Source of the DNA: Clostridia bacterium
Lineage (GTDB): Bacteria; Bacillota; Clostridia; Oscillospirales; Acutalibacteraceae
Direction: 5' to 3'
NCBI GenBank assembly: GCA_900767025.1
Contig: CAAFXS010000014.1
Location: forward strand, 1,238-65,237
Length of the DNA stretch: 64,000 nucleotides
How positions within the stretch are numbered: position 1 is the stretch's first letter; every line of letters starts with the position of its first letter. Shown here piece after piece: positions 31,405 through 55,660 of this stretch. The position numbers and the translations under genes were made by a program. Below the pieces are notes generated by a model that was given only the letters and a program-made list of their open reading frames with translations, did no database searches and was not told the origin of the DNA.

Positions 31405-31405
31405 T

Positions 31406-33624: not shown

Positions 33625-34566
33625 ATGACCAAGGTTTTTATTGACGGAAAGGACGGCACAACCGGCTTAAAAATATACAACAGGTTTGACGGCAGAGATG
33701 ACATCGAGCTTTTGCTCATTGACCCTGAAAAAAGGAAGGATGCCAAGGAGAGGGCAAGGCTTATACACGAAAGCGACATAACCTTTCTCTGTCTGCCGGA
33801 TGCGGCTTCAATTGAGGCGGTTGCACTTGCAGGTGACTGTGACACAAAAATAATTGACACCTCAACGGCACACAGAACTCTTGAGGGCTGGGCATACGGC
33901 TTTGCGGAATTAAGCACTGACCACCGACGAAAAATTGAAAGCAGTAGCAGAATTGCCGTACCCGGCTGTTATGCAACGGGATTTAACTCAATAGTTTATC
34001 CCCTAATAAAAAACGGATTTATCGGCAGTGACTATGACATTGTGTGCCATGCTTTAAGCGGTTACACCGGTGCAGGCAAAAAAGGTATTGCTCAATACGA
34101 GGACGAAAGCAGGGACAGGGAGCTTGACTCGCCAAGGCTTTACGCATTAACACAGGAGCATAAGCACCTTAAGGAAATGAAGGCTGTCAGCGGTCTTGAC
34201 AAATTCCCGATTTTTTCACCTATCATCTGCGATTATCCGAGAGGTATGGTTGTTACCGTTCCCCTTTACACAGACAGGATGAATAAAAAATATTCCAAAG
34301 AGGATATACAAAAAATGTTCAGCGAGCATTATGCAGGCAGTGACATAATCAAGGTCAGAGAGCTTGGATACACTGAAGGTATGATAGGCTGTAACAATTT
34401 TGAAGGCCGTGACGATTTGGAAATTGAAATCAACGGCAATGATGACAGAATACTCATTACCGCCCGCTTTGACAATCTGGGCAAGGGTGCCTCGGGTGCT
34501 GCTATACAGTGTATGAACATTGCTATGGGTATTGACGAAAAAACAGGACTTAATATAGGAGAATGA
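33625..34566 (+). CDS. argC: N-acetyl-gamma-glutamyl-phosphate reductase
   Basis: Short-form ArgC, 313 aa. Catalytic ...AVPGCYATG... Cys motif. Confidence 0.88.
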   Translation: MTKVFIDGKDGTTGLKIYNRFDGRDDIELLLIDPEKRKDAKERARLIHESDITFLCLPDAASIEAVALAGDCDTKIIDTSTAHRTLEGWAYGFAELSTDHRRKIESSSRIAVPGCYATGFNSIVYPLIKNGFIGSDYDIVCHALSGYTGAGKKGIAQYEDESRDRELDSPRLYALTQEHKHLKEMKAVSGLDKFPIFSPIICDYPRGMVVTVPLYTDRMNKKYSKEDIQKMFSEHYAGSDIIKVRELGYTEGMIGCNNFEGRDDLEIEINGNDDRILITARFDNLGKGASGAAIQCMNIAMGIDEKTGLNIGE

Positions 34567-34570
34567 AAAT

Positions 34571-35812
34571 ATGAAAAAAATTGACGGAGGAATTTGTGCG
34601 GCAAAGGGATTTAAGGCAAGCGGCACATATTGCGGAATTAAAAGGCCGGCCAACGATACACCTGATGCAAAGCACAAAAACGATATTTGCCTGTATGTAA
34701 GCGACAGGGCTTGCAACACTGCGGCGGTATACACTCAAAACAAGGTTAAGGGTGCGCCGATTGTTGTTACAAAGGCGAACCTTGAAAAAAGCGGCGGAAA
34801 AGCAATTGCAGTAATTGCAAATTCCAAAAACGCCAACACCTGCAATGCAGACGGCATTGAAAAGGCAAACAAAATGTGTGAGCTTGTGGCAAAGGAGCTT
34901 GGTATTCCGCAGGAGCAGGTTGTTGTGGCAAGCACCGGTGTTATCGGTCAGGTACTACCTATTGAGCCTATTGAAAAGGCTGTTCCCGTTCTTGCAAAGG
35001 AGCTTGATTACGGCAAAAACGAAGATGCCGCAACGGCTATTATGACCACCGACACGGTAAAAAAGGAATATGCCGTTGAATTTGAAATCAGCGGCAAGGT
35101 TTGTCATCTTGGCGGAATGGCAAAGGGCTCGGGTATGATTCACCCGAATATGGCAACAACACTTAATTTCATCACAACAGACTGTGCCATTAGCCAAAGC
35201 CTTTTGCAGAAGGCGCTGAGCGATATTGTTAAGGTTACATACAACTGCCTGTCAATCGACGGTGACACCTCAACAAATGATATGGTTTGTCTTATGGCTA
35301 ACGGCTTGGCAGGAAATGACGAAATAACCGCAGAAAACGATGAATACATAACATTTAAAAATGCACTTTATGAGGTTATGGCTAACCTTACCCGTATGCT
35401 TGCCAAGGACGGCGAGGGTGCAAGCAAGCTCCTTGAATGCATCTGCACAGGTGCAAAGGATTTGGACACCGCAATCACTGTTGCCAAAAGCGTTATCTGC
35501 TCTTCTCTTTTCAAGGCGGCTATGTTCGGCGAGGATGCTAACTGGGGCAGAGTTCTGTGCGCAATCGGCTATGCCGACGCTGATTTTGACATTAACAGGG
35601 TTAATGTTGATTTAAGGAGCGAAAACGGCGTTGTAGCTGTATGCAGAAACGGTGCAGGCGTTGAATTCAGCGAGGAAAAGGCAGGCAAGATTCTTTCTGC
35701 TGATGAAATTTACATTGACATTAACTTAAATGACGGCTCTGTTGAAGCAACCGCATGGGGTTGTGATTTGACCTATGATTATGTAAAAATTAACGGAGAT
35801 TACAGAACCTGA
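34571..35812 (+). CDS. argJ: Bifunctional glutamate N-acetyltransferase / amino-acid acetyltransferase
   Basis: ArgJ family, 413 aa. Self-cleavage region ...HPNMATTLNFITTD.... Confidence 0.88.
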   Translation: MKKIDGGICAAKGFKASGTYCGIKRPANDTPDAKHKNDICLYVSDRACNTAAVYTQNKVKGAPIVVTKANLEKSGGKAIAVIANSKNANTCNADGIEKANKMCELVAKELGIPQEQVVVASTGVIGQVLPIEPIEKAVPVLAKELDYGKNEDAATAIMTTDTVKKEYAVEFEISGKVCHLGGMAKGSGMIHPNMATTLNFITTDCAISQSLLQKALSDIVKVTYNCLSIDGDTSTNDMVCLMANGLAGNDEITAENDEYITFKNALYEVMANLTRMLAKDGEGASKLLECICTGAKDLDTAITVAKSVICSSLFKAAMFGEDANWGRVLCAIGYADADFDINRVNVDLRSENGVVAVCRNGAGVEFSEEKAGKILSADEIYIDINLNDGSVEATAWGCDLTYDYVKINGDYRT

Positions 35813-35839
35813 TTAATCAGGGTTTGTATAGGCGAAATA

Positions 35840-35898
35840 CCGTAGGGGCGACCATTGGTCGCCCGAATATAATCGGGCTTGCAGTGCAAGCCCCTACG
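35840..35898 (+). repeat. REP/MITE-like structured repeat, copy 2 (variant second hairpin), intergenic between argJ and argB
   Basis: CCGTAGGGGCGACcattgGTCGCCCG-aatataat-CGGGCTTGCAgTGCAAGCCC-CTACG. Same outer stem and first hairpin as copies 1 and 3. The second hairpin differs in sequence but remains palindromic. Confidence 0.7.
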
Positions 35899-35959
35899 AA
35901 AGTTTGTTACATTAACACACAAAAAAATACCAATTAATATAAAGCTTCGGAGAAATGCT

Positions 35960-36817
35960 ATGGATATTAACAATGCACAAAAGGCGGAGATAATTGCTCA
36001 CGCTCTGCCACACATACAGAAATACAGGAAGAAAATTGTTGTTGTAAAATACGGCGGAAACGCAATGATTAACCAGGAGCTTAAGGAAGCCGTTATGCGT
36101 GACTTGGTGCTTTTAACAACAGTAGGCATCAAGGTGGTTCTTGTTCACGGCGGAGGCCCCGACATCAGCAGAGTTCTGAGCAAAATGAACATTGAAAGCA
36201 GGTTTGAAAGCGGTCTGCGTGTTACCGACAGGGACACTGTTGAGGTTGTTCAGATGGTGCTTGCAGGCAAGGTTAACAAGGATTTGGTTTGCCAGATAGG
36301 TAATTTGGGCGGTCACGCCATCGGTCTTTCGGGTATGGACGGAAATATGATTGAGTGCGTGCCACTTGATGATACCCACGGCTATGTGGGCAGAATTACA
36401 AATGTTAACACCGATGTTATTGAGGAGGCGCTGGAGCACAGCTTTATCCCTGTTGTTTCAACCATCGGATACGATAAGGAAAGCAACTGCTACAACATTA
36501 ATGCCGACACGGTTGCCGCCGCAATAGCAGGTGCGCTCAACGCAGAGGCTCTTGTTTCAATGACTGACATTGTGGGACTTTTAAGAGACAAGGACGATGA
36601 GTCAACGCTTATTCACAAGGTTTATATTAGTGACACACCTGCCCTTATTTCCGAGGGAATAATCACCGGTGGTATGATACCTAAAATTGATTCAATGACA
36701 CAGGCAATCCGTGAGGGTGTTAAAAAAGCATTTATTATTGACGGACGGGTACCCCACTCTATTCTTATGGAGCTTCTTACCGATGAAGGTATGGGTACAA
36801 TGTTCAGAAGCAGGTGA
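35960..36817 (+). CDS. argB: Acetylglutamate kinase
   Basis: ATG at 35960 with GGAGAAA RBS (the ORF-track start at 35879 would span the REP element). Amino-acid kinase family ...VVVKYGGNAM... 285 aa. Confidence 0.88.
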   Translation: MDINNAQKAEIIAHALPHIQKYRKKIVVVKYGGNAMINQELKEAVMRDLVLLTTVGIKVVLVHGGGPDISRVLSKMNIESRFESGLRVTDRDTVEVVQMVLAGKVNKDLVCQIGNLGGHAIGLSGMDGNMIECVPLDDTHGYVGRITNVNTDVIEEALEHSFIPVVSTIGYDKESNCYNINADTVAAAIAGALNAEALVSMTDIVGLLRDKDDESTLIHKVYISDTPALISEGIITGGMIPKIDSMTQAIREGVKKAFIIDGRVPHSILMELLTDEGMGTMFRSR

Positions 36818-36821
36818 TAAA

Positions 36822-37982
36822 ATGAACACAAAAGAACTTGACATTCAATACATTGCCCATTCCTACGGCAGATTTGATGTGGCGCTTGCAAAGGGCAAGG
36901 GCTCAACGCTCATTGATGAGGAGGGCAAGGAATACATAGATTTCGGCTCCGGAATCGGCGTTACCGCCTTCGGCATTTGTGACGAGGAATGGAAAAAGGC
37001 GGTGAAGGCTCAGCTTGATTTGGTACAACACACAAGCAACCTTTACTACACCTCCCCCTGTGCAAGACTGGCTGAAATGCTTTGCGAAAAATCGGGAATG
37101 AAAAAGGTTTTCTTTGCAAACAGCGGTGCAGAGGCAAACGAGGGTGCTATTAAATTTGCAAGGAAATACAGCTTTGACAAATACGGCGAGGGCAGGAGCA
37201 CAATAATAACACTCGTTAACTCCTTTCACGGCAGGACGATAACTACCCTTTCCGCCACGGGTCAGGACAGCTTTCACACCGTATTCGGACCTTTTACAGA
37301 GGGCTTTAAATACTGCCCTGCTAATGACATTGATACACTTAACAAAATGGCAACTGACGATGTTTGCGCAATTATGTTTGAGTGTGTTCAGGGTGAAGGC
37401 GGAGTTAACAACCTTGATTATGACTTTGTAAAGGCAATCGAAAGGCTTGCAAAGGAAAAGGACATACTGATGATTGTTGACGAGGTGCAGACAGGAAACG
37501 GCAGAACAGGCAAATATTTTGCCTACGAGCATTTTGATATTAAGCCGGACATTGTTTCCACCGCAAAGGGACTTGCAGGCGGTTTACCAATGGGTGCAGT
37601 GTTTTTCGGTGAAAAGCTCAAGGACACGGTGACCCCGGGCTCCCACGGTTCAACCTTCGGCGGAAATCCAATCTGTGCGGCAGGTGCGGTTTCAATAGTA
37701 TCAAGAATTGATGATAAATTTCTTGATGCAGTTAATGAAAAAAGCAAATACATAAAGGATTTTCTGAACAATGTCAGCGGTGTTAAATCCATATCGGGTA
37801 TGGGACTGATGCTTGGCATTGAAACTGAAAAGGACGCAAAGGAAATTGCAGGCGAATGCTTAAAAAACGGCTTGCTTGTACTTACGGCAAAAACAAAAAT
37901 TAGGCTCCTTCCGGCACTTAACATAAGCTACGAGGAGCTTGAAAAGGGACTTAATATCTTAAAGGAGGCAATTGAAAAATGA
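36822..37982 (+). CDS. argD: Acetylornithine aminotransferase
   Basis: ATG at 36822, 5 nt after the argB stop. Class-III PLP aminotransferase; ...DEVQTGNGRTGK... and ...STAKGLAGG... (PLP lysine). Confidence 0.88.
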   Translation: MNTKELDIQYIAHSYGRFDVALAKGKGSTLIDEEGKEYIDFGSGIGVTAFGICDEEWKKAVKAQLDLVQHTSNLYYTSPCARLAEMLCEKSGMKKVFFANSGAEANEGAIKFARKYSFDKYGEGRSTIITLVNSFHGRTITTLSATGQDSFHTVFGPFTEGFKYCPANDIDTLNKMATDDVCAIMFECVQGEGGVNNLDYDFVKAIERLAKEKDILMIVDEVQTGNGRTGKYFAYEHFDIKPDIVSTAKGLAGGLPMGAVFFGEKLKDTVTPGSHGSTFGGNPICAAGAVSIVSRIDDKFLDAVNEKSKYIKDFLNNVSGVKSISGMGLMLGIETEKDAKEIAGECLKNGLLVLTAKTKIRLLPALNISYEELEKGLNILKEAIEK

Positions 37983-38881
37983 AGCATTTACTTAAATTAC
38001 AGGATTTGGATAAGGCTGACATACTCGACATTCTCAACCTTGCGGACCAGCTTAAATACGAAACAAAGCACGGTATTGAGCATCATCACCTTAAGGGCAA
38101 AACCCTTGGTATGATTTTTCAAAAAAGCTCAACAAGAACAAGGGTAAGCTTTGAAACAGGAATGTATCAGCTTGGCGGCCAGGCTCTTTTCCTTTCAAAC
38201 AGGGATTTGCAGATTGGCAGAGGCGAGCCTGTTCAGGACACCGCAAGGGTGCTTTCACGCTATCTTGACGGTATTATGATTAGAACCTTTGAGCAAAAAG
38301 AGGTTGAGGATTTGGCTGAATACGGCTCAATTCCCATTATCAACGGTCTTACCGACTACTGTCATCCTTGCCAGGTGCTTGCAGATTTAATGACAATTAA
38401 GGAATACAAAAAAAGCTTTGACGGACTTAAGCTCTGCTTTATCGGTGACGGCAACAATATGGCAAACAGCCTTATTGTTGGTGCAATTAAAATGGGTATG
38501 AGCTGTGCAATCGCCTGTCCCGACGGCTACAAGCCCGATGCGGAAATTATGAAATGGGCAGAGGAAAACGGCAACTTTATGTGCAGTGACAACATTCTTG
38601 AATGTGCAAAGGACGCTGATGTTCTTTATACAGACGTTTGGGCATCAATGGGTCAGGAAGAGGAAAAGGCTGAAAGAGAAAAGATTTTCAAAGACTATCA
38701 GATTAACGATGAGGTTATGGCTGTGGCTAAAGCAGACGCTATGGTGCTTCACTGCCTGCCTGCTCACAGAGAAGAGGAAATCACCGCAAAGGTATTTGAA
38801 GAACACGCAGACGAAATTTTTGACGAGGCTGAAAACAGACTCCATGCACAGAAGGCAGTCCTTGTTAAGCTGTTAGGATAA
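37979..38881 (+). CDS. argF: Ornithine carbamoyltransferase
   Basis: STRTRVSFE carbamoyl-phosphate-binding motif, HCLP motif, 300 aa. Overlaps argD by 4 nt. Confidence 0.9.
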   Translation: MKHLLKLQDLDKADILDILNLADQLKYETKHGIEHHHLKGKTLGMIFQKSSTRTRVSFETGMYQLGGQALFLSNRDLQIGRGEPVQDTARVLSRYLDGIMIRTFEQKEVEDLAEYGSIPIINGLTDYCHPCQVLADLMTIKEYKKSFDGLKLCFIGDGNNMANSLIVGAIKMGMSCAIACPDGYKPDAEIMKWAEENGNFMCSDNILECAKDADVLYTDVWASMGQEEEKAEREKIFKDYQINDEVMAVAKADAMVLHCLPAHREEEITAKVFEEHADEIFDEAENRLHAQKAVLVKLLG

Positions 38882-38886
38882 TTATT

Positions 38887-39972
38887 ATGAGCGATAACAA
38901 AATTTACATTTGCCTTGCCGACGGCAGTGTGTTTGAGGGCAAAGCCTTCGGTGCAAAGGGCGAGGTTTTAGGCGAGCTTGTGTTCACAACGGGTATGGGC
39001 GGTTATATCGAAACCCTTACCGACCCAAGCTATTTCGGTCAAATAGTAATGCAGACCTTTCCCCTTATCGGCAACTACGGCTTTATTGATGATGATAAGG
39101 AATGTGAAAAAAGCGCCGTTTCGGCTTACATTGTCCGTGAATACTGCGGTGAGCCGTCAAATTTCAGGTGTGACAGAACTCTTGAAGCATACCTGAAGGC
39201 CAACGGAATTGTAGGCGTTTATGATGTTGACACAAGGGAAATCACAAAAATAATCCGTGAATACGGTGTTATGAATGCGCTTATCACCGATAATCCCGAT
39301 AATGCGGATTTAGAAAAAATCAAGGCTTATCAGGTTAAGGATGCGGTTAAATCCGTTTCCGCCGTTAAGCCGTCATTAAGTGCATCCGATGAGCACAGGT
39401 TCAACGTTGTTCTTATTGACTACGGCACAAAGAAAAATATTGTAAGAGAGCTTAACAAAAGGGGCTGTAATGTTGCCGTTGTGCCCTACAACACAAAGGC
39501 AGAGGATATTTTATCCCTTAATCCCGACGGTATTATGCTTTCAAACGGACCCGGCGACCCCCAGGAAAACACAAATGAAATTGAAGAACTGAAAAAGCTT
39601 GCAGGCAAAAAGCCCATATTTGCAATTTGCCTGGGTCATCAGCTTTTGGCACTTTCCCAAGGAGCGGAAACCGCAAAACTGAAATACGGCCACAGAGGTG
39701 TTAACCAGCCTGTTAAAAATCTTGAAAACGGCAGAACCTTTATTTCATCGCAAAATCACGGCTATGCAGTTGTTAACGAAAGCGTTGAAGACACAGGCGG
39801 TAAAATCAGCTTTGTTAATGCAAACGACGGTACCTGTGAGGGAATTGACTATCCCCTGCTAAATGCATTTTCCGTTCAGTTTCACCCGGAGGCTTGCTCA
39901 GGTCCCAAGGACACTAATTTTATTTTTGACAAATTCATTGATATGATGGGAGGTAAAAGCAATGCCTCTTGA
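38887..39972 (+). CDS. carA: Carbamoyl-phosphate synthase small (glutaminase) subunit
   Basis: CarA N-domain plus class-I GATase (...ICLGHQLL..., catalytic Cys). 361 aa. Overlaps the carB start by 11 nt. Confidence 0.9.
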   Translation: MSDNKIYICLADGSVFEGKAFGAKGEVLGELVFTTGMGGYIETLTDPSYFGQIVMQTFPLIGNYGFIDDDKECEKSAVSAYIVREYCGEPSNFRCDRTLEAYLKANGIVGVYDVDTREITKIIREYGVMNALITDNPDNADLEKIKAYQVKDAVKSVSAVKPSLSASDEHRFNVVLIDYGTKKNIVRELNKRGCNVAVVPYNTKAEDILSLNPDGIMLSNGPGDPQENTNEIEELKKLAGKKPIFAICLGHQLLALSQGAETAKLKYGHRGVNQPVKNLENGRTFISSQNHGYAVVNESVEDTGGKISFVNANDGTCEGIDYPLLNAFSVQFHPEACSGPKDTNFIFDKFIDMMGGKSNAS

Positions 39973-42900
39973 TAAAAGCATAAAAAAGGTTCTTGTTATC
40001 GGTTCGGGTCCCATCGTTATCGGTCAGGCGGCGGAATTTGACTACGCAGGCGCACAGGCCTGCCGTGTGCTTAAGGATGAGGGCATCGAGGTTGTTCTCG
40101 TTAACTCCAACCCTGCCACAATAATGACGGACAAGGCTCTTGCCGACCATATTTATCTTGAACCGCTGACGGAAGAAACGGTTAAAAGAATTATTGAAAA
40201 AGAAAGACCCGATTCCATTCTCTGCGGTCTCGGAGGACAGACAGGTCTTACCATAGGTATGCAGCTTGCAAAGGACGGTTATCTTGAACAGATGGGCGTT
40301 CGTTTGCTTGGTACAAACGCCGAAGCCATTGACAAGGCAGAGGACAGGCAGATGTTTAGGGACACCATGGTTAAAATCAATCAGCCTGTTGTTCCAAGCG
40401 ACATTGCGCAGACCGTTGAACACGCAAAGGAAATTGCCAAGGAAATCGGCTACCCTGTTATCATCCGTCCCGCCTTTACATTAGGCGGAGCAGGCGGCGG
40501 TGTTGCAAATGATGAAAAGAAGCTTGAAATAATAGCCAAGAACGGCTTAATGCTCTCCCCTATTACTCAGGTGCTTGTTGAGCGTTACATTGCAGGCTGG
40601 AAGGAAATTGAATTTGAGGTAATGCGTGACGGTGCAGGCAATGTTATTGCCGTATGCTCAATGGAAAACTTTGACCCTGTTGGAGTTCACACCGGTGACA
40701 GCATTGTTATTGCTCCTGCCGTTACTCTTGCGGACAGGGAATATCAAATGCTCCGTTCCGCCTCACTTGACATTATCACCGAGCTTGGTATTGAGGGTGG
40801 CTGCAACTGCCAGTTTGCCCTTAATCCCGAAAGCTTTGAATACTCGGTTATTGAGGTTAATCCAAGAGTTTCAAGGTCGTCTGCTCTGGCGTCAAAGGCA
40901 ACGGGTTACCCCATTGCAAAGGTTACTACAAAAATCGCACTTGGATACACTCTTGATGAAATCAAAAATGATATTACGGGCAAAACCTGTGCCTGCTTTG
41001 AGCCTGCACTTGACTATGTTGTTGTTAAGCTGCCAAAATGGCCCTTTGACAAATTTGTCAATGCCTCAAGAAAATTAGGCACACAGATGAAGGCAACAGG
41101 CGAGGTTATGAGCATTGCACCGAGCTTTGAAATGGCGGTTATGAAAGCGGTTAGAGGTGCTGAAATCGGACTTGACACCCTTAACTGCCCTGTCCTTGAG
41201 GGCACAGAACCGTTGGAAAGGCTTTCACATCAGGACGATTTAAGGATGTTTGCCGTGTTCAGAGCCCTAAAAAACGGCATTTCTATTGACGAAATCCACC
41301 GCATTACAATGATTGACGAGTGGTTTTTGGCAAAGCTGAAAAACCTTGCGGATTACGAAAAGGAAATTGATGGCAAGCCTTTAAGTGAGGAAATGTACCT
41401 TAAAGGCAAAAAGCTTGGCTACACCGACAAAGCACTTGAAAAAATCAGCGGCGGCTCCCTTTTGTATCACAGGGATTGCGTTTACAAAATGGTTGACACC
41501 TGCGGTGCTGAATTCAAGGCGGAAACACCTTATTTTTACTCCACCTATGACAATCACTGCGAGTCAAGAGAGCTTGAAAAAAGCGGTAAGGAAAAAATTA
41601 TCGTGTTAGGCTCAGGTCCTATCCGCATCGGTCAGGGTATTGAATTTGACTACTCCTGCGTTCACTGTGTATGGACCTTAAAGGAGCTTGGCTACGAGGT
41701 TATACTCATTAACAACAACCCCGAAACCGTTTCCACCGATTTTGACACAGGCGACAGGCTTTATTTTGAGCCACTTACCGAAGAAGATGTTATGAACATT
41801 ATCAAGGCGGAAAATCCCCTTGGCGTTGTGGTTGCCTTCGGCGGACAGACGGCTATTAAGCTGACAAAATTCCTTGATGACAACGGCATAACAATCTTCG
41901 GCACAAGTGCAAAATCCATTGACCTTGCGGAAGACAGGGAAAAGTTTGACGCACTCCTTGAAAAATTCAATATTTTCAGGCCAAAGGGCGAAAGCGTTAT
42001 GACCCTTAACGGTGCTTTAGCATCTGCCGAAAGGCTTGGCTATCCTGTTCTTCTTCGCCCCTCCTATGTTATCGGCGGTCAGAATATGACTATTGCTTAC
42101 ACCGACGACGATGTTAAGCAGTATATGGAAATTATTCTTTCCCAGGGCATTACTAATCCCGTGCTTGTGGACAAGTATATGATGGGCACGGAGCTTGAGG
42201 TTGACTGCATCAGCGACGGTGAGGATGTGCTTATCCCGGGTATAATGGAGCATATCGAAAGAGCAGGCGTTCACTCCGGCGACTCCATTGCAGTATATCC
42301 GCCCTATAACCTTAACGATATGATGCTTGACAAGGTTTGCAGGGTTTCCGAAAATCTTGCTTTATCCCTTGGCACAAAGGGACTTGTTAACATTCAGTAT
42401 CTTATCTACCAAAACGAGCTGTTTGTTATTGAGGTTAATCCCAGAGCATCAAGGACCATACCTTACATAAGCAAGGTTACAGGGGTTCCCATGGTTGAGC
42501 TTGCGTCAAAGATAATGGTGGGTGCGTCCCTTAAAGACCTTGGCTACGGAACAGGACTTTATTCAACTCCCCCATACTACGCCGTTAAGGTGCCTGTGTT
42601 CAGCTTTGAAAAGCTAAATGATGTTAACTCCAAGCTTGGTCCCGAAATGAAATCCACAGGCGAGGTTTTGGGCGTAGGCAAAAATCTTGTTGAGGCTTTA
42701 TACAAGGGCCTTGTGTCCGCAGGCTTTAAAACCGATTTTCACCGAAAGGACAACCACGGCGTACTTATCACCGTTACCAAGCAGGACAGATTTGAAATAG
42801 TTAATCTTGCCAAAAAGCTTGATGATTTGGGTGCAAGGATATGGGCAACTCCCGAAACGGCAAAGGCTATTGAAAGCCTTGGAATTGAGGTATCGGTGGT

Positions 42901-43993
42901 TAACAAGCTTCGTGAGGACAATTCAATTATGGATTTGGTTGAAAGCGGTGTGCTTGATTACATTGTATACACAGGCAAAAGCGACAAAAAATCAATTGCC
43001 GACTATATCAAGCTCCACAACAGAGCAAATCAGCTTGGCATTGCAGTTATAACATCCCTTGACACAGCAAATGCCGTGGCGGACATAATTGCATCTCGCT
43101 ACAAGCAGACCAACACAGAGCTTGTGGATATTAACAATATGAGAAAAGAAAAGGGTATCCTTAAATTCTCAAAAATGCAGGGCACCGGCGACGATTATAT
43201 TTTCTTTAACAATCAGTGCGGAATTATTACCTGCCCCGAAAGCTTTGCCATTGAATTTACCGACAGGCACAGAGGTATCGGCGGTGACGGTATTATTCTC
43301 ATTGAAGAAAGCGAAGCTGCCGACGCTAAAATGCGTATATTTAACATTGACGGCTCCGAGGGTAAAATGGCAGGCAACTCCATTAGATGCGTGGGCAAAT
43401 ACCTTTATGACAACGGTATGGTTAACTCAAAGGAAATGGATATTGAAACCGCATCGGGCATCAGGCATCTGTCACTGTTTACAAGAAACGGCAAGGTATC
43501 CTCCGTTACCGTTGATATGGGCAAGGCACAGCTGAAGCCAAGCCGTATTCCCGTTATTGCACAGGGTGAAAGGGTTATTGACTACCCTGTTCAAATCGGT
43601 GGCATTGAATACAAAATCAATTCCTGCAGTATCGGTAATCCCCACTGTGTTGTTTTTGTTGACAATGTTGACAAAATTAACCTTGGGGAAATAGGTCCTC
43701 AATTTGAAACCGCAGACATTTTCCCTGAAAGAATTAACACGGAATTTGTGAGAGTAGTTAATTCAAACACCCTTAAAATGAGGGTTTGGGAAAGAGGTAA
43801 CGGCGAAACACCTGCCTGCGGAACAGGCGCCTGCGCCGCAGTTATCTGTGCAGTTGAAAAAGGACTTTGCCCCAAGGGCGAAAGCATCACCGTAAAGGTA
43901 AAAGGCGGAGATTTAATTGTAAATTACTCCGACGACGGTGTTAAGCTCACAGGCGACTGCAATCTTGTTTACAAAGGCGAAATTGAATATTAA
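39962..43993 (+). CDS. carB: Carbamoyl-phosphate synthase large subunit (residues ~1-1065) fused in frame to a diaminopimelate-epimerase (DapF)-like domain (residues ~1069-1343)
   Basis: Two ATP-grasp halves and an MGS-like domain ending ...ASRYKQTNTELVDINN. This continues without a stop into MRKEKGILKFSKMQGTGDDYIFF...GNSIRC...SIGNPHCVVFV...ACGTGACAA (DapF fold motifs). There is no RBS before the junction Met. Confidence 0.8.
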   Translation: MPLDKSIKKVLVIGSGPIVIGQAAEFDYAGAQACRVLKDEGIEVVLVNSNPATIMTDKALADHIYLEPLTEETVKRIIEKERPDSILCGLGGQTGLTIGMQLAKDGYLEQMGVRLLGTNAEAIDKAEDRQMFRDTMVKINQPVVPSDIAQTVEHAKEIAKEIGYPVIIRPAFTLGGAGGGVANDEKKLEIIAKNGLMLSPITQVLVERYIAGWKEIEFEVMRDGAGNVIAVCSMENFDPVGVHTGDSIVIAPAVTLADREYQMLRSASLDIITELGIEGGCNCQFALNPESFEYSVIEVNPRVSRSSALASKATGYPIAKVTTKIALGYTLDEIKNDITGKTCACFEPALDYVVVKLPKWPFDKFVNASRKLGTQMKATGEVMSIAPSFEMAVMKAVRGAEIGLDTLNCPVLEGTEPLERLSHQDDLRMFAVFRALKNGISIDEIHRITMIDEWFLAKLKNLADYEKEIDGKPLSEEMYLKGKKLGYTDKALEKISGGSLLYHRDCVYKMVDTCGAEFKAETPYFYSTYDNHCESRELEKSGKEKIIVLGSGPIRIGQGIEFDYSCVHCVWTLKELGYEVILINNNPETVSTDFDTGDRLYFEPLTEEDVMNIIKAENPLGVVVAFGGQTAIKLTKFLDDNGITIFGTSAKSIDLAEDREKFDALLEKFNIFRPKGESVMTLNGALASAERLGYPVLLRPSYVIGGQNMTIAYTDDDVKQYMEIILSQGITNPVLVDKYMMGTELEVDCISDGEDVLIPGIMEHIERAGVHSGDSIAVYPPYNLNDMMLDKVCRVSENLALSLGTKGLVNIQYLIYQNELFVIEVNPRASRTIPYISKVTGVPMVELASKIMVGASLKDLGYGTGLYSTPPYYAVKVPVFSFEKLNDVNSKLGPEMKSTGEVLGVGKNLVEALYKGLVSAGFKTDFHRKDNHGVLITVTKQDRFEIVNLAKKLDDLGARIWATPETAKAIESLGIEVSVVNKLREDNSIMDLVESGVLDYIVYTGKSDKKSIADYIKLHNRANQLGIAVITSLDTANAVADIIASRYKQTNTELVDINNMRKEKGILKFSKMQGTGDDYIFFNNQCGIITCPESFAIEFTDRHRGIGGDGIILIEESEAADAKMRIFNIDGSEGKMAGNSIRCVGKYLYDNGMVNSKEMDIETASGIRHLSLFTRNGKVSSVTVDMGKAQLKPSRIPVIAQGERVIDYPVQIGGIEYKINSCSIGNPHCVVFVDNVDKINLGEIGPQFETADIFPERINTEFVRVVNSNTLKMRVWERGNGETPACGTGACAAVICAVEKGLCPKGESITVKVKGGDLIVNYSDDGVKLTGDCNLVYKGEIEY

Positions 43994-44049: not shown

Positions 44050-45900
44050 TTATTTTAATGAAATGCCTTCCACAAACCAGCCGTTAAGGGTCAGGCATTT
44101 AGATGCCTTCTGCTCATTAAAGAGCTTGCAGAAATCATATCCTGCTCCGTTTTGAACAGGAGCAAGGCTGATACTGCCGTCGGCAAGAGCCTTATAAACC
44201 TGGTCATATTTTGCCTGAATTTCCTCATCATCGGAAACGAAGGTTGCATAAATTCCGTCTGTTGCACAGTTAGCGGCAACCACACTGCCGCCCTTGAAAT
44301 CTGCAAGGCAATCCTTAACAGCCTCGCCGTAGTTCTTAACAATTGTTGTATATGCGTTGTCGTTGTTTGCGCCTGCGGAATAAACATCAAGCGGGAAATC
44401 ATAATTCCACTTTGCAGTATAAGCGGAGTCTAATGAGCTGCCGCCGTCGAAAATTGCCGTAACGCCCTTGTCGTACATTGTTTCGCAAATTGCGGCATAG
44501 CGGTCAACCATTTCAAAGCTTGTGCTCCAGTAATACTCATTCTCCATTGCAATGCCTGTGGACTCGCCGTAGGTATCACTGTTTTCCCAGTGAGAGAACA
44601 TATAGCCGTCCATAGGTACGGCGGCTGAAACCTCAACCTTATCACCTGCAACATAGGAGCCTGAGCCTGATGACTCACCGTCACCGCCCTGGCCTGTAAC
44701 AACTGTCACATTAAATGTAGGTGTTTCACCGGGCTTATAGGTAGGAACAAGAGTAACATCTCCGTTATCAACAGGCACCCAAATTTCCTTTGAGGTTAAA
44801 TCGGTATCACCTAAATCAGCAGTGGTCTCCCACTTGTCAAAAACCATATATTCGGGAGCAACAGGTGCTTTAACGGAAACGCCGTCGCCGATAGCCGCAT
44901 TATACTGAGCATAAACTGTTTTGCCGTCGGTATCCATAACAGTAACCTCTGCATAGTCGCCCTCAATATCCTTATATGTAGCGGTAATTGTGCAGTCGCA
45001 CTTTTCAACAAGGAGATTCATCTGTGAATCCTTTTCAGAGGAAATGTTAACCTTTTTATCCTTAACGCCCTCGGTATCGCTTTTAACAACCCACTTGTCA
45101 AAAACCTTGCCCTCGGGAGCAGGATTTGCAGTAATTGTTACATTACTGCCCAAAGTATATGTACCTGAGCCTGTACCGTCAACAACATTGACCTCAAAGG
45201 TTTCCTCCTGAGAATCCTCAATTTTTTCATAACAGGCGGTTACTGTGAAATTGTAATTGTAATCAGCAAGCGGTGAATCGTAATCAGCCCAGTCAACGCT
45301 TACGGGAATGCCCATAGAGTCAGCCGCATAGGCCGCACCCTGAACAAAGCCTACGCCGTATCCTGCTGAATCCCTGCTCTTTGCCTCGCCGAAAAATCCA
45401 AGCTCGTTATTACCGCTGATAACGGCTATATAGCCTGCAAGAAATCCGCTTTGCACTGCATCAAAGCTAACGCACATAACATTGCCGAGAAAGCTATTGA
45501 TATTACTTCCGGCGGAATGAGGAAACGCATCAAGAAGAATAAAGTTTACATCAGGATAGCTGCCTGCAATTTCGTAAGCACTGACAGCAAAATCCTCACC
45601 GGGAAAAACAATGAACTGCGCACCGTTCTGTGCCGCAAGGTCAACATATTTCTCAACACTTTCCGTTGTAAGCTCGCCTTTATCATCAAGGGCAGGCTGA
45701 TAGTAACGGCAGGTCATTGAGTTTTCCTCGGCAAAGGAGGAAATGCCCTCCCATGCACTTTGGTTATATCCGCCGTCATTAACGGCGGCGCCGTCGGTAA
45801 TAAGAACAATATCACTCTTAAGCTCTGCCTGCTTGGTACAGCCTGCAAAAACACAGCACACCATAGCAAAACACATCAATAGTGAAACAAGCTTTTTCAT
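44050..45900 (-). CDS. BMP-family (PnrA/Med-like) ABC-transporter substrate-binding lipoprotein with three inserted Flg_new-type repeats
   Basis: Start at 45900 (MKKLVSLLMCFAMVCCVFAGC; lipobox FAGC; GGAGGAAAGCT RBS). BMP fold motifs ...IVLITDGAAVNDGGYNQSAWEG.... Three ~80-aa repeats ending KVFDKWVV / YMVFDKWET / GYMFSHWEN (G-Y-x-F-x-x-W signature of Listeria-Bacteroides repeats). Confidence 0.7.
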   Translation of the reverse strand: MKKLVSLLMCFAMVCCVFAGCTKQAELKSDIVLITDGAAVNDGGYNQSAWEGISSFAEENSMTCRYYQPALDDKGELTTESVEKYVDLAAQNGAQFIVFPGEDFAVSAYEIAGSYPDVNFILLDAFPHSAGSNINSFLGNVMCVSFDAVQSGFLAGYIAVISGNNELGFFGEAKSRDSAGYGVGFVQGAAYAADSMGIPVSVDWADYDSPLADYNYNFTVTACYEKIEDSQEETFEVNVVDGTGSGTYTLGSNVTITANPAPEGKVFDKWVVKSDTEGVKDKKVNISSEKDSQMNLLVEKCDCTITATYKDIEGDYAEVTVMDTDGKTVYAQYNAAIGDGVSVKAPVAPEYMVFDKWETTADLGDTDLTSKEIWVPVDNGDVTLVPTYKPGETPTFNVTVVTGQGGDGESSGSGSYVAGDKVEVSAAVPMDGYMFSHWENSDTYGESTGIAMENEYYWSTSFEMVDRYAAICETMYDKGVTAIFDGGSSLDSAYTAKWNYDFPLDVYSAGANNDNAYTTIVKNYGEAVKDCLADFKGGSVVAANCATDGIYATFVSDDEEIQAKYDQVYKALADGSISLAPVQNGAGYDFCKLFNEQKASKCLTLNGWFVEGISLK

Positions 45901-46020
45901 AGCTTTCCTCCAAAAAGAAATTATCACTAATTAATAATATCAAAAAACCGCAAATAATGCAACACTAATTTGTTGATTTATATATGAAAAGTAATTATAA
46001 TAGTAGCTGAGGTGAGCATT

Positions 46021-46824
46021 ATGCTTGAAAAGGAAATTGAATTTATAAGGTCAAAAACAGACTTTATTCCCGATATTTCACTAGTTTTGGGCAGTGGCCT
46101 CGGCGGCTTTTCCCGGGAAATAAATGAAGCATTTTCAGTTGAATACAGGGAAATACCCGATTTTCCCGTATCCACCGCACCGGGTCATAACGGACGGTTT
46201 ATCTTCGGCACTATCGGTAATAAAAGGGTTGTGGCAATGGACGGAAGAGTTCATCTTTACGAGGGATATTCACCCAAAGAGGTTGTTAAGCCCATAAGGC
46301 TAATGAGGCTTTTGGGGGCGAAAACACTATTGCTGACAAACGCCGCAGGCGGTATCAACAGCAGCTTTAAGCCCGGGGATTTTATGATAATTAACGACCA
46401 TATTTCAAGCTTTGTGCCAAGCCCTCTTATCGGGAAAAATGATGACAGTCTGGGCTTACGCTTTCCCGATATGAGTGAGGTCTATTCAAAAAGGCTTGGA
46501 GATATAATCAAAGCCACTGCCGAAAAACAGGGCACTGATATAAAAAACGGAGTTTACATTCAGTTTACCGGGCCGAATTTCGAAACCCCGGCGGAAATCC
46601 AAATGGCAAAAGCTTTAGGTGCAGACGCCGTGGGTATGAGCACGGTTATTGAGGCTATGGCAGGAAAGCACTGCGGCTTTGAGGTATGCGCCGTTAGCGT
46701 TATCTCTAACCTTGCCTGCGGCATCAGTGAAGCACCCATAACAAGCGAGGAGGTTTGCGAAACCGCCGACAGAGTTGCTCCCCTGTTCAGAAATTTAATT
46801 AAGGAATCAATAGGTAATTTCTAA
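46021..46824 (+). CDS. Purine nucleoside phosphorylase (PNP-I / PunA / MtnP-like family)
   Basis: ATG at 46021 with GAGGTGA RBS. PNP-UDP_1 fold; ...[10 protein letters not shown]... and ...NAAGGIN... motifs. Confidence 0.8.
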
Positions 46825-47801
46825 TGGAAAATTTAAGATTTAAAAACAACAGACTTTTTATACTCGACCAAACTCTTTTGCCGAATGAAGAAAAATGGGT
46901 TGAGATAAAAAATAAAGAGGATGCGTACACCGCAATAAAAGAGCTTATGGTTCGCGGTGCTCCTGCAATCGGTATTTTTGCTGGCTACTGCTGTGCTCTT
47001 TTTGCAAAGGACAATGACATTTACGAGCTGAAAAAATATCTTGACTCATCAAGACCCACTGCAGTTAATCTCAGCTGGGCAACCGCTGAAATCGTAAAGG
47101 CATACGAAAAGGGCAAAAGCCTGATTGACCGTGCGAAAGAAATTCACCGTGAGGACATTGAAATGTGCCGAAAAATAAGTGAGTACGGTCTATCTCTGCT
47201 TAAAGACGGCGACGGCATACTGACCCATTGCAACGCAGGCGAGCTTGCGGCAAGCAGATACGGAACAGGCTTGGGTCCTTTAATTCTCGGTAAGGAAAAG
47301 GGATATAATTTCAAGGTATACTGTGATGAAACAAGACCCCTTCTGCAAGGGGCAAGGCTAACCTCCTATGAGCTTGAAAAGGCTGGAATTGATGTAACCC
47401 TCATATGCGACAATATGGCAAGCCTTGTTATGAAGGAGGGCAAAATCAACGCCGTGCTTGCAGGCTGTGACAGAGTTGCGGCTAACGGCGACACGGCCAA
47501 TAAAATTGGTACAAGCGGTGCGGCAATTCTTGCAAAATACTACAATATTCCCTTTTATATTTTAGGTCCTTATTCCACCGTTGATTTTAACTGCAAAACA
47601 GGTGATGATATTAAAATCGAGGTCAGAGAGCCTGACGAAATTAAGGAAAAGTATTTTGAAAAGCCAACTGCGCTTAAAGAAACAAAATGCTACAATCCTG
47701 CCTTTGATGTGACGGATAATTCACTGATTACCGCTATTATCACCGACAAGGGCATAGCCTATCCCCCCTTAGAAAAAAGCCTTAAGGAGATACTGAAATG
47801 A
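46824..47801 (+). CDS. mtnA: S-methyl-5-thioribose-1-phosphate isomerase (eIF-2B-like)
   Basis: MtnA/eIF2B alpha-beta-delta family. ...RGAPAIG... and ...[16 protein letters not shown]... motifs. Confidence 0.75.
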
Positions 47802-49063
47802 TTAGATTTTTTAACGGCAAAACACTGACAATGAAAGACGGCTTTGATATCACCGACCAAGAGGTTTGGGTTGACGGCAACAAAATATGCTATGTGGGTG
47901 AGAAAAAAGAAAACTGCAATCAGGCTTTTGAAAGAGAAATTGACCTTAACGGAAATCTGCTGATGCCAAGCTTTAAAAACGCACACACTCACTCGGCAAT
48001 GACCTTTTGCAGAAGCTTCAGTGACGATATGCCCCTGCAGGAGTGGCTTTATGACAGGATTTTTCCTATGGAGGCAAGGCTCACAGGTGAGGACATTTAC
48101 AAGTTTTCCAAAATTGCATTTCTCGAATACCTGACAAGCGGAATTACCGCCTGCTTTGATATGTACTATTTCCCGGAGGATATGGCAAGGGCAAGCGTTG
48201 AAACAGGCTTTCGCACTGTAATGTGCGGTGCGGTTAACAATTTTAAGGAGTCTGTTTCACTGCTGGAGGAATATTATAACAGGTACAACAGCTATAATGA
48301 GCTAATCGGTTACAGGCTTGGATTTCATGCAGAATACACCACCGACAAAGCAATAATGAAGGGCATTGCCAAGCTTGCTGACAAATACGAAGCTCCGGTA
48401 TTTACCCATTCAAGCGAAACCATGGAGGAAACGCAAAACTGCATTAATGCATACAACAAAACACCCACACAGCTTTTTGAAAGGCTTGGGCTTTTTGATT
48501 ACGGCGGAGGCGCTTTCCACAGTGTTTGGGTGGACGAAAAGGATTTGGATATTTACAAGAAGCACGGCGTTTATGCGGTTATTAATTCCGGCTCCAACTG
48601 CAAGCTTGCATCAGGGGTTGCACCCGTTCAAAAAATGCTTGACAATGGCGTTAATATTGCAATAGGCACCGACGGTGCAGGCTCCAACAACGGACTTGAT
48701 GTGTTCCGTGAAATGTATTTAACCTGCGTTTTGCAGAAAATTAAAAACAGAGATGCATCCTCAACCGACGCAAACAAAATTCTTCGCTCGGCAACCGTTG
48801 GCTCTGCAAGATGTATGGGACTTGATGACTGCGACTGTATTGACACAGGCAAAAAGGCAGATTTGATTGTTATTGATTTAAACAGACCGAGTATGCAGCC
48901 GATACACAATATTACCAAAAATCTTGTTTACAGCGGCTCAAAGGACTGTGTTAAGCTGACTATGGTTAACGGAAAAATCCTTTACGAAAACGGAGAATTC
49001 CCAACACTTGATATTGAAAAAATATATACCGAGGCAAATAATGCTGTTGAGAGAATAAAATAA
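47798..49063 (+). CDS. Amidohydrolase-family 5-methylthioadenosine/S-adenosylhomocysteine (or adenosine) deaminase, MtaD-like
   Basis: Metal ligands ...[10 protein letters not shown]... (HxH), ...FTHSSE..., ...[11 protein letters not shown].... 421 aa. Overlaps mtnA by 4 nt. Confidence 0.75.
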
Positions 49064-55496: not shown

Positions 55497-55660
55497 ATAA
55501 ATTTCACCTCAATGATATTCATTTACTGATAGTCCTAAACTTTTTAATAAGTGTTTTCATAACAGGTAATATACCCGTCAAAGGTGCCGGCAAAGAGCCT
55601 GCCCTCTGCAAGAGCAATTTCCCCCAATAGATAACAGACATATTGTATTAGTTTAATAAT

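What the first reader, a model, noticed from the sequence alone, without database searches (positions are those of the whole stretch)
43331..43400. DapF-like domain of the fusion lacks the first catalytic cysteine (Cys to Ala)
In the motif equivalent to B. subtilis ...SDGSEGKNCGNGLRC... and E. coli ...SEVAQCGNGARC..., this protein reads ...DGSEGKMAGNSIRC. The GCA Ala codon sits at 43370-43372 where the catalytic thiol (E. coli Cys73) is expected. The second catalytic Cys (ACGTGACAA, Cys217 equivalent) is present. DapF is a two-base (Cys/Cys) PLP-independent racemase. A single-Cys variant would be inactive as an epimerase or would have altered chemistry, as seen with Cys-to-Thr/Ser variants of the related proline-racemase family that act as dehydratases.
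Basis: partly seen in the sequence, partly recalled or inferred. Interest (0 to 1): 0.6.

Follow-up and report, generated by a model that had tools for sequence, protein, structure and literature searches.

The report
CarB-fused DapF domain lacking one thiol
The last gene of an arginine-biosynthesis operon encodes carbamoyl-phosphate synthetase fused to a diaminopimelate-epimerase-like domain whose first catalytic cysteine is alanine. This state is conserved under strong selection in many uncultured gut Clostridia, so the domain is probably no longer a normal epimerase, although annotation pipelines would call it one.

Summary
ORF 39962-43993 (+) encodes a 1343-aa CarB fused in frame to a full DapF-like domain. 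The GCA codon at 43370-43372 (Ala1137) aligns without gaps to the catalytic Cys73 of solved DapFs, and the Cys217 equivalent (TGC 43817-43819) is present.

This is not a sequencing error. All 80 best species genomes carry Ala there, using all four Ala codons. In an outgroup-rooted tree built without that column, 112 non-Cys homologs (Ala, a few Gly or Ser) form one exclusive clade. Its sister group consists mostly of CarB-DapF fusions that keep Cys.

Every other DAP-pocket and catalytic residue is nearly invariant in the clade. The domain evolves at dN/dS about 0.05, against about 0.024 for CarB. An AlphaFold model superposes on ligand-bound DapF at 1.6 Å rmsd. The argC-J-B-D-F-carA-carB::dapF* arrangement is conserved.

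No residue consistently replaces the lost thiol. The best reading is a DapF-derived domain that still binds DAP but does not perform two-base epimerisation, acting as a ligand-binding or regulatory module of CarB. A one-base enzyme comes second, and residual epimerase activity third.

I could not test whether the same genomes hold a canonical dapF or ddh. I found no literature on this fusion. I rate it a new variant of a known kind.

The parts
33625..39972 (+). Upstream genes of the operon: argC, argJ, argB, argD, argF, carA.
   Evidence: NCBIfam equivalog hits. The same order lies upstream of the fusion in at least 54 of 80 related genomes.
39962..43993 (+). Single ORF of 1343 aa plus stop: the carB::dapF-like fusion.
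   Evidence: The exact protein is also found on an independent ENA metagenome contig. A continuous ORF of about 1345 aa is seen in related genomes wherever the contig allows.
39962..43102 (+). CarB portion (aa 1-1047), including the MGS-like allosteric domain.
   Evidence: NF003671 scores 1439 bits and TIGR01369 scores 1403 bits. Alignment to E. coli CarB residues 787-1051. dN/dS about 0.024.
43103..43162 (+). Linker KQTNTELVDINNMRKEKGIL, with a conserved NTELVDIN-x-MR motif.
   Evidence: The motif is conserved in both Ala-type and Cys-type fusions. No Shine-Dalgarno-like sequence precedes the junction Met.
43163..43990 (+). DapF-like domain (aa 1068-1343).
   Evidence: TIGR00652 scores 269-274 bits against a cut-off of 114.65. 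PF01678. AF2 model has pLDDT 90.8, and its best PDB match is ligand-bound DapF 9mro_A at TM 0.93 and rmsd 1.6 Å. dN/dS about 0.05.
43349..43390 (+). Motif DGSEGKMAGNSIRC, equivalent to the canonical DGSE..xCGNGxRC.
43370..43372 (+). GCA = Ala1137 at the position of catalytic Cys73. It is the N-cap of the central helix of the N-terminal half-domain.
43379..43381 (+). TCC = Ser at the position of Gly76 (helix position +3). In the Ala clade this is S/C/A/N; in Cys-type enzymes it is G/A.
43190..43192 (+). GAC = Asp at the position of Asn11 (GTGDDY instead of GxGNDF/Y). About half of the Ala clade has Asp and half has Asn.
43232..43243 (+). Clade-specific CPES motif. Its Cys is conserved in 93 Ala-type sequences and replaced by D/N/S in Cys-type sequences. 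It lies at the N-terminus of the outer helix.
43817..43819 (+). TGC = retained second catalytic Cys (Cys217 equivalent), the N-cap of the second central helix.
43343..43345 (+). Asn64 equivalent (distal-carboxylate site).
43637..43645 (+). GNPH motif: Asn157 and His159 equivalents.
43736..43738 (+). Asn190 equivalent.
43790..43795 (+). Glu208-Arg209 equivalents.

Best explanation
The C-terminal 276 residues of this CarB are a DapF-derived domain. It keeps the complete diaminopimelate (DAP) binding pocket and the Cys217/His159/Glu208 half of the catalytic machinery, but it has lost the Cys73 thiol. It arose once, by Cys-to-Ala substitution, within an older lineage of CarB-DapF fusion proteins, and it has been kept under strong purifying selection in a large clade of uncultured gut and rumen Clostridia. 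Two-base epimerisation needs a thiol on each face of C-alpha, and no other residue consistently replaces Cys73. The domain therefore most likely no longer acts as the cell's LL-/meso-DAP epimerase. Instead it probably binds DAP or a close analogue and closes around it, as DapF does, acting as a non-epimerising ligand-binding (regulatory or structural) module attached to the allosteric domain of the arginine-pathway carbamoyl-phosphate synthetase. What is shown: the fusion, the loss, its conservation, the pocket conservation, the selection, the fold and the operon context. What is inferred: loss of epimerase activity, the identity of the ligand, and any effect on CarB.
For: The register and the loss are established. 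Ala is present in 80 of 80 species genomes with all four Ala codons. The 112 non-Cys sequences form one exclusive clade whose sister group consists mostly of CarB-fused Cys-types.

In the Ala clade the other key residues are essentially invariant: N64 112/112, G74 109, N75 111, N157 111, H159 112, N190 109, E208 110, R209 109, C217 110, G218 111.

dN/dS is 0.05 for the domain and 0.024 for CarB. The modelled domain superposes on aziDAP-bound DapF at 1.6 Å, and the two-domain model has pTM 0.77.

No universal substitute for the thiol exists. Position 76 is S/C/A/N. Position 11 is N or D. The CPES Cys is absent from the stand-alone Ala-type proteins P0023 and P0092. The Dysosmobacter sp. member reads MAGNALRC, with neither thiol nor hydroxyl at position 73 or 76.

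Double-mutant E. coli DapF is inactive. E. coli DapF has a documented non-catalytic partner-binding role with RppH.

The gene is the last cistron of an argC-J-B-D-F-carA operon in at least 54 of 80 genomes. This is an odd location for a housekeeping cell-wall enzyme.
Against: No activity, ligand or CarB regulation was measured. Strict retention of Cys217, which is not needed for binding alone, fits a catalytic role better than pure sensing. I could not determine whether these genomes hold another DapF or a Ddh. If they hold neither, this domain would have to make meso-DAP. No biochemical reason is known for a CPSase to sense DAP. The sister fusions keep both cysteines, so the fusion itself does not require loss of catalysis.
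Confidence: 0.4

Rival explanations
1. Neofunctionalised one-base enzyme. With only Cys217 (assisted by His159 and Glu208) the domain abstracts the alpha-proton at a D-configured centre of a DAP-like substrate. It then catalyses a reaction that needs one base only: beta-elimination or dehydration of a 3-substituted or thia-analogue such as lanthionine, an allylic or imine-enamine isomerisation, or stereospecific proton exchange. Single-base members of the wider fold superfamily work this way.
For: Cys217, His159 and Glu208 are as conserved in the Ala clade as in true epimerases. Several near-pocket changes coincide with the Cys loss, which suggests a remodelled site rather than a dead one: G/A76 to S/C/N, residue 211 Ser to Asn, residue 195 to Arg. 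The same fold hosts PhzF and 3-hydroxyproline dehydratases, and proline-racemase-family members with one Cys replaced act as dehydratases (PMC3958920 and PMC4364671, listed). From my own knowledge, H. influenzae C73A still eliminates HF from 3-fluoro-DAP.
Against: No candidate substrate or pathway partner appears in the operon or within 10 kb on either side in 80 genomes. The distal L-amino-acid site is unchanged, so the substrate would still be DAP-like, and DAP has no beta leaving group. The Pfam Pro_racemase and PhzF models score below their cut-offs.
Confidence: 0.22
2. The domain is still the organism's DAP epimerase, using a non-canonical second acid/base. Candidates are a water or hydrosulfide in the cavity left by Cys-to-Ala/Gly, the Ser/Cys at position 76 one helical turn along, or Asp at position 11.
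For: The pocket and the other catalytic residues are intact, and purifying selection is strong. It scores as an equivalog DapF. The ancestral fused domain had both cysteines and may have been the only DapF. At least one genus bearing the Ala-type, Dysosmobacter, has meso-DAP in its cell wall. The two deepest branches of the Ala clade carry Cys at position 76.
Against: Position 76 is Ala, Asn, Val or Pro in about a quarter of the clade, and position 11 is Asn in half of it. Dysosmobacter sp. has Ala at both 73 and 76. Engineered Cys-to-Ala DapFs are inactive (Koo et al. 2000, from my own knowledge). Being encoded as the last cistron of an arg operon and fused to CarB is poorly suited to an essential cell-wall enzyme (inference).
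Confidence: 0.15
3. Functionless relic or artefact: a decaying remnant of a formerly fused DapF, a sequencing or assembly error, or a chimeric ORF.
For: Some database entries look like separate or truncated genes.
Against: Those cases are artefacts: an N-gap in L003 and an in-frame TAG in a MAG in L002. The exact 1343-aa protein recurs on an independent contig. All 80 species have the same state, with synonymous variation at the Ala codon. dN/dS is 0.05 and the pocket is invariant.
Confidence: 0.03

Closest known systems
Canonical diaminopimelate epimerase DapF (TIGR00652 / PF01678; e.g. B. anthracis 2otn, H. influenzae 1gqz/2gke, cyanobacterial 9mro)
   Same: The two-half-domain fold is the same (TM 0.93, rmsd 1.6 Å to 9mro). 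Identity to 2otn over the domain is about 50%, estimated by eye from the alignment. All DAP-contacting residues, Cys217, the His159/Glu208 pair and the aromatic dimer-interface residue (Tyr268 equivalent, Y/F) are retained.
   Different: Cys73 is Ala. Gly76 is Ser (S/C/A/N in the clade). Asn11 is Asp. The domain is fused to the C-terminus of CarB and encoded in an arginine operon.
CarB-DapF fusions with both cysteines (e.g. P0124, 1349 aa, NCBI MAG GCA_050950425.1; also P0102, P0119, P0122, P0061/P0123)
   Same: The architecture and the NTELVDIN-x-MR linker are the same. They are the sister group of the Ala clade in the tree.
   Different: They keep Cys73 with G/A at position 76, Ser at 211 and S/N in place of the CPES Cys. 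In P0124 only carA lies upstream, not the full arg operon.
Engineered DapF active-site mutants (E. coli C73A/C217A; H. influenzae C73A, C73S, C217S, PDB 2q9h/2q9j)
   Same: The same position lacks its thiol. The mutants fold normally (solved structures are listed).
   Different: Those are laboratory loss-of-function mutants (no detectable activity, PMC6061791). Here the state is natural, ancient and selected, with accompanying nearby substitutions.
Proline-racemase-like trans-3-hydroxy-L-proline dehydratases (one catalytic Cys replaced by Thr)
   Same: Same fold superfamily. They set the precedent that loss of one of the two Cys converts a racemase scaffold into a one-base enzyme (papers; structural hits 6r76 and 4k7g).
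   Different: Only 13-16% identity. The Pfam Pro_racemase score is below its cut-off. Their replacement residue is Thr, not Ala, and their substrate pocket is different.
DapF as a non-catalytic partner of RppH in E. coli
   Same: It shows that a DapF scaffold can serve a role based on protein-protein interaction (PMC4227774, PMC6061791).
   Different: E. coli DapF remains a fully active epimerase and is not fused. The partner is an RNA pyrophosphohydrolase, not CarB.
DapF homologues with changed substrate (HisR/CntK histidine racemases, DcsC O-ureidoserine racemase 7vdy, chlamydial bifunctional DapF/Glu racemase NF038284)
   Same: DapF fold and annotation as DapF by similarity.
   Different: All of them keep both cysteines and change the pocket. 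Here the pocket is kept and one cysteine is lost. NF038284 scores 107-112 bits against a cut-off of 350.

Membership tests
DapF, diaminopimelate epimerase (TIGR00652 / PF01678) | Sequence-profile score above the curated cut-off. | tested here: met
   TIGR00652 scores 268.6-273.7 bits against a cut-off of 114.65. PF01678 scores 192 bits against 34.7.
DapF, diaminopimelate epimerase (TIGR00652 / PF01678) | Two pseudo-symmetric half-domains, each with a central helix pointing into the cleft. | tested here: met
   AF2 model with pLDDT 90.8. Best PDB matches are DapFs, led by 9mro_A at TM 0.93 and rmsd 1.6 Å.
DapF, diaminopimelate epimerase (TIGR00652 / PF01678) | First catalytic thiol (Cys73), the base for the L-centre. 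| tested here: not met
   Ala1137 (GCA 43370-43372) aligns to Cys73. Ala is present in 80 of 80 related species.
DapF, diaminopimelate epimerase (TIGR00652 / PF01678) | Second catalytic thiol (Cys217) with the His159/Glu208 pair. | tested here: met
   The TGC codon lies at 43817-43819. In the Ala clade C217 is present in 110/112, H159 in 112/112 and E208 in 110/112.
DapF, diaminopimelate epimerase (TIGR00652 / PF01678) | DAP-binding residues: Asn64, Gly74, Asn75, Asn157, Asn190, Arg209, Gly218, Ser/Thr219 (Asn11). | tested here: met
   All are present and nearly invariant in the clade. Only Asn11 varies, being Asp here and N/D about 50:50 in the clade.
DapF, diaminopimelate epimerase (TIGR00652 / PF01678) | Catalyses the interconversion of LL-DAP and meso-DAP. 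| not testable with these tools
   This needs an enzyme assay or complementation. The E. coli C73A/C217A mutant is inactive (PMC6061791).
CarB, carbamoyl-phosphate synthase large subunit (NF003671 / TIGR01369) | Full-length match above the cut-off, with two ATP-grasp halves, an oligomerisation domain and an MGS-like allosteric domain. carA lies adjacent. | tested here: met
   1439 bits against a cut-off of 599. The Pfam domain set is. carA is at 38887-39972.
Proline racemase-like family (PF05544), including one-Cys 3-hydroxyproline dehydratases | Profile score above the cut-off. | tested here: not met
   22.0 bits against a cut-off of 27. Structural matches show only 13-16% identity.
PhzF family (PF02567) | Profile score above the cut-off. 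| tested here: not met
   17.2 bits against a cut-off of 27.
Bifunctional DapF/glutamate racemase (NF038284) | Profile score above the cut-off. | tested here: not met
   106.6-111.5 bits against a cut-off of 350.

The most novel reading that the evidence does not exclude
The one-thiol domain is still the only diaminopimelate epimerase of these bacteria. It inverts the alpha-carbon with Cys217 plus a non-protein or non-canonical second acid/base, such as a water or hydrosulfide held in the Ala/Gly cavity. That would be a natural exception to the textbook two-cysteine mechanism of cofactor-independent racemases.
Probability: 0.12. Interest if true: 0.85.

Novelty: new variant of a known kind. 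Interest (0 to 1): 0.55.

Why it matters
Automated annotation will call this domain a functional DapF, because it passes the TIGR00652 equivalog cut-off. Metabolic reconstructions of many abundant, uncultured gut and rumen Clostridia (Eubacterium sp. CAG:251-like, Ruminococcaceae and Oscillospiraceae MAGs, Dysosmobacter sp.) may therefore wrongly credit them with the epimerase step of lysine and peptidoglycan synthesis.

Biologically, this is a clean natural experiment. Whichever outcome is true would be new for DapF: a racemase-derived ligand sensor on carbamoyl-phosphate synthetase, a new one-base enzyme, or a one-thiol epimerase. It can be tested directly with a recombinant protein.

Tried and rejected
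1. Sequencing error or shifted register. Rejected by the gapless alignments, by 80 of 80 species carrying Ala, and by the use of four synonymous Ala codons.

2. Apparently separate dapF-like genes next to carB (P0084, and the P0030 class of 448-449 aa). These are artefacts of a scaffold N-gap and of an in-frame TAG in a MAG. P0086, called as stand-alone, has the CarB linker in frame upstream.

3. The clade-specific Cys of 'ITCPES' as a relocated catalytic thiol. Rejected because it is absent from the stand-alone Ala-types P0023 and P0092. It also sits at the N-terminus of the outer helix, which by DapF topology lies far from the cleft. That last point is an inference, because model coordinates could not be inspected.

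4. Ser/Cys at position 76, or Asp at position 11, as a universal replacement base. Rejected as universal, because position 76 is A/N/V/P in about 25% of the clade and position 11 is Asn in about 50%.

5. An internal translation start for a separate DapF. No Shine-Dalgarno-like sequence was seen before the junction Met.

6. The single-sequence AlphaFold run was useless (pLDDT 34). It was redone with a 108-sequence alignment.

7. Search for a second dapF or a ddh. There is none in the 64-kb window and none within 10 kb on either side of the fusion in 80 genomes. Whole genomes could not be searched. The single genome scan returned only the fusion loci. Two look-ups with window-end proteins failed, probably because of start-codon mismatch.

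8. Literature searches for CarB-DapF fusions, one-Cys DapF or a DapF pseudoenzyme found nothing relevant.
Full report
**What is there.** The finding lies inside one long ORF, 39962-43993 on the + strand (1343 aa). Residues 1-1047 are a complete carbamoyl-phosphate synthase large subunit: NF003671 scores 1439 bits, and both ATP-grasp halves, the oligomerisation domain and the MGS-like allosteric domain are present. After a 20-residue linker (KQTNTELVDINNMRKEKGIL), residues 1068-1343 match the DapF equivalog model end to end. TIGR00652 scores 269-274 bits against a cut-off of 114.65, and PF01678 also matches. Upstream on the same strand, almost without gaps, lie argC, argJ, argB, argD, argF and carA. 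The fusion is therefore the last cistron of an arginine-biosynthesis operon. The exact 1343-aa protein also occurs on an independent ENA metagenome contig.

**Check of the observation.** The peptide DGSEGKMAGNSIRC is encoded at 43349-43390, and GCA at 43370-43372 is Ala1137. phmmer alignments to solved DapFs have no gaps across this motif. They put the Ala opposite the catalytic Cys73 in B. anthracis 2otn, cyanobacterial 9mro, Arabidopsis 3ejx and P. aeruginosa 8qzy. The Cys in 'IRC' is the ordinary conserved Cys79, which canonical enzymes also carry (135 of 140 Cys-type sequences). The catalytic thiol has therefore not simply moved in the alignment. The second catalytic cysteine is present in GETPACGTGACAA (TGC 43817-43819).

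**Not an error, and not private to this sequence.**
- Among the 120 best database homologs, a motif scan found Ala in 95, Cys in 9, Gly in 2 and Ser in 1.
- In a 270-sequence alignment that adds 150 representatives of 50%-identity clusters, the column reads C 140, A 112, G 9, S 3.
- A scan of one genome per GTDB species returned 80 loci at 71-85% identity. All are MAGs from gut or rumen named Eubacterium sp., Ruminococcaceae, Oscillospiraceae or Clostridia, and they include Eubacterium sp. CAG:251 and Firmicutes bacterium CAG:341.
- All 80 have Ala, and the ORF runs continuously into CarB (about 1345 aa) wherever the contig permits.
- The Ala codon is GCA in 52, GCG in 15, GCC in 9 and GCT in 4. 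The residue has therefore been held while its codon drifted.
- Database entries that looked like a separate dapF gene were artefacts: a run of N in L003 and an in-frame TAG in a MAG in L002.

**Evolutionary origin.** I built a neighbour-joining tree with the Cys73 column masked and rooted it on a distant DapF. In it, 112 non-Cys sequences form one exclusive clade with no Cys-type member. The sister group consists mostly of CarB-DapF fusions that keep both cysteines, such as P0124 (1349 aa), P0102, P0119, P0061, P0123 and P0086. Further fusions (P0129, P0122, P0140) branch next. The fusion therefore came first, and the thiol was lost once inside it. This rests on NJ only, without bootstrap support. 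Three unrelated non-Cys sequences (P0160, P0121, P0195) lie elsewhere in the tree. Stand-alone Ala-type genes exist: P0023 sits after an ANTAR gene, and P0092 appears stand-alone from its N-terminus only.

**What was kept and what changed.** In the Ala clade the residues that contact DAP in solved DapF complexes are essentially invariant. So is the other half of the catalytic machinery.

| Residue | Conserved in Ala clade (of 112) |
|---|---|
| N64 | 112 |
| G74 | 109 |
| N75 | 111 |
| N157 | 111 |
| H159 | 112 |
| N190 | 109 |
| E208 | 110 |
| R209 | 109 |
| C217 | 110 |
| G218 | 111 |
| T219 | 107 |

The aromatic dimer-interface residue (Tyr268 equivalent) is Y/F in both types. Several changes coincide with the Cys loss:
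- Gly/Ala76 becomes S 47, C 34, A 16, N 10.
- Residue 211 changes from Ser to Asn.
- Residue 195 becomes Arg.
- A new Cys appears in an 'ITCPES' motif.
- Asn11 becomes Asp in about half of the clade, including this window.

Pairwise Nei-Gojobori estimates on 65 full-length genes give a median dN/dS of 0.050 for the DapF-like part and 0.024 for CarB. An AlphaFold model of residues 931-1343, built on a 108-sequence alignment, has pLDDT 90.8 and pTM 0.77. In it, Ala1137 and Cys1286 each cap the N-terminus of a central helix. The best PDB matches are ligand-bound, closed DapFs: 9mro_A at TM 0.93 and rmsd 1.6 Å, and 3ejx at rmsd 2.0 Å. This is a well-folded, selected domain with an intact pocket, not a decaying relic.

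**Is there a replacement base?** I found none that holds across the clade.
- Position 76, one helical turn after the Ala, is Ser here and Cys in 30% of the clade. It is Ala, Asn, Val or Pro in about a quarter.
- The member annotated as Dysosmobacter sp. (WP_326204649.1) reads MAGNALRC, with no thiol or hydroxyl at either position.
- Asp at position 11 is present in only half of the clade.
- The CPES Cys is missing from the stand-alone Ala-types. It caps the outer helix, which in the DapF topology lies away from the cleft. This is an inference, since I could not read model coordinates.
- The two deepest branches of the Ala clade do carry Cys76. This leaves a weak hint that the thiol may first have shifted and then been lost.

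**Mechanistic reading.** DapF inverts C-alpha with a thiolate on one face and a thiol on the other (summarised in PMC11602996). The E. coli C73A/C217A enzyme has no detectable activity (PMC6061791). From my own knowledge, the H. influenzae single mutant C73A is inactive as an epimerase but still eliminates HF from 3-fluoro-DAP (Koo et al., JACS 2000).

I therefore consider it most likely (0.4) that the domain binds DAP or a very close analogue but does not epimerise it. In this reading it serves as a ligand-binding, regulatory or structural appendage on the allosteric end of the arginine-pathway CPSase. The location fits this: the gene is the last cistron of argC-J-B-D-F-carA in at least 54 of 80 genomes, which is not where one expects a housekeeping cell-wall enzyme.

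The strongest rival (0.22) is a one-base enzyme, because Cys217, His159 and Glu208 are conserved as strictly as in real epimerases. Residual epimerase activity with an unconventional second base gets 0.15. A functionless relic or artefact is essentially excluded (0.03). These four confidences sum to 0.80; the remaining 0.20 is left for roles I did not consider.

**What I could not settle.** The decisive question is whether the same genomes carry a two-Cys dapF or a meso-DAP dehydrogenase. There is none in the 64-kb window. There is none within 10 kb on either side of the fusion in 80 genomes. D. welbionis, of the genus to which one Ala-type member is assigned, has meso-DAP in its wall (PMC13599835). 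These bacteria therefore need a source of meso-DAP, and the ligand is physiologically present.

**Comparison with what is known, and novelty.** By fold, profile score and pocket the domain is DapF, but it fails one defining feature, the Cys73 thiol. I therefore do not file it as a functional diaminopimelate epimerase. It is not a member of the proline-racemase, PhzF or chlamydial bifunctional families, whose models all score below their cut-offs. Known DapF offshoots (HisR/CntK, DcsC) keep both cysteines and change the pocket, which is the opposite pattern. Full-text searches found nothing on CarB-DapF fusions, natural one-Cys DapFs or DapF pseudoenzymes. I rate it a new variant of a known kind, with interest 0.55.

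Noticed in passing
window 43103-43162; loci L005-L009, L011-L090: The CarB-DapF linker carries a conserved NTELVDIN-x-MR motif in both Cys-type and Ala-type fusions. The Met looks like the fossil start codon of the formerly separate dapF. No Shine-Dalgarno-like sequence precedes it.
   Followed up: partly
window 43232-43243: A clade-specific 'CPES' motif has a Cys conserved in 93 Ala-type sequences, where Cys-type DapFs have D/N/S. It lies at the N-terminus of the outer helix, near where the CarB linker enters. It may be an interface or a redox site.
   Followed up: partly
L002 (GCA_054290425.1, JAZPGL010000014.1) about 9940-10000: In this MAG an in-frame TAG replaces a conserved Lys codon inside carB (YYAV*VPVF). 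The fusion is therefore called as two genes of 878 and 449 aa. This is either a sequencing error or a pseudogene. Many 448-449-aa database entries begin at the same internal Met.
   Followed up: partly
L004 (ENA ERZ773364 NODE_15043) 1395-2228: A stand-alone 277-aa Ala-type DapF-like gene (P0023) lies directly downstream of an ANTAR-domain gene. It nests within the fused clade but lacks the CPES motif. It may have arisen by secondary fission.
   Followed up: no
window 42269-43100 (CarB allosteric region): Relative to E. coli CarB, the phosphate-binding residues of the UMP/IMP site are kept (K954R, T974, T977, K993). N1015 and T1017 are Tyr and Gly, and the ornithine-site Glu892 is Val. The usual effector pattern may therefore differ.
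   Followed up: partly
window 46012-49063: A cluster that looks like methylthioadenosine/SAH salvage: purine-nucleoside phosphorylase, S-methyl-5-thioribose-1-phosphate isomerase (MtnA) and an amidohydrolase of the MTA/SAH-deaminase type.
   Followed up: no
window 24508-26790, 52848-57016, 58996-62301: Host-glycan-degrading enzymes are present (GH20 hexosaminidase, GH95, GH29 alpha-L-fucosidase, GH38 alpha-mannosidase). This fits a mucin- or glycan-foraging gut Clostridium.
   Followed up: no
window 30289-33358 (- strand): A 370-aa protein combines a phage holin family 4 domain with a CHAP peptidase domain. It lies next to a 649-aa ORF with no Pfam match. This may be a prophage remnant or an autolysin module.
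   Followed up: no
window 44050-45927 (-) and 51396-52802 (+): A large ORF convergent with the fusion had no NCBIfam match. The contig look-up reports Bmp and Flg_new_2 domains for it. A separate 468-aa ORF has no Pfam match at E <= 1e-10.
   Followed up: no
record titles (L016, L026, L027, L031, L055, L065, L085): Several MAGs that carry this clostridial operon are labelled Bacteroides sp., Agathobacter rectalis, Bifidobacteriaceae or [Ruminococcus] torques. The taxonomic labels or the binning of these public records look unreliable.
   Followed up: no
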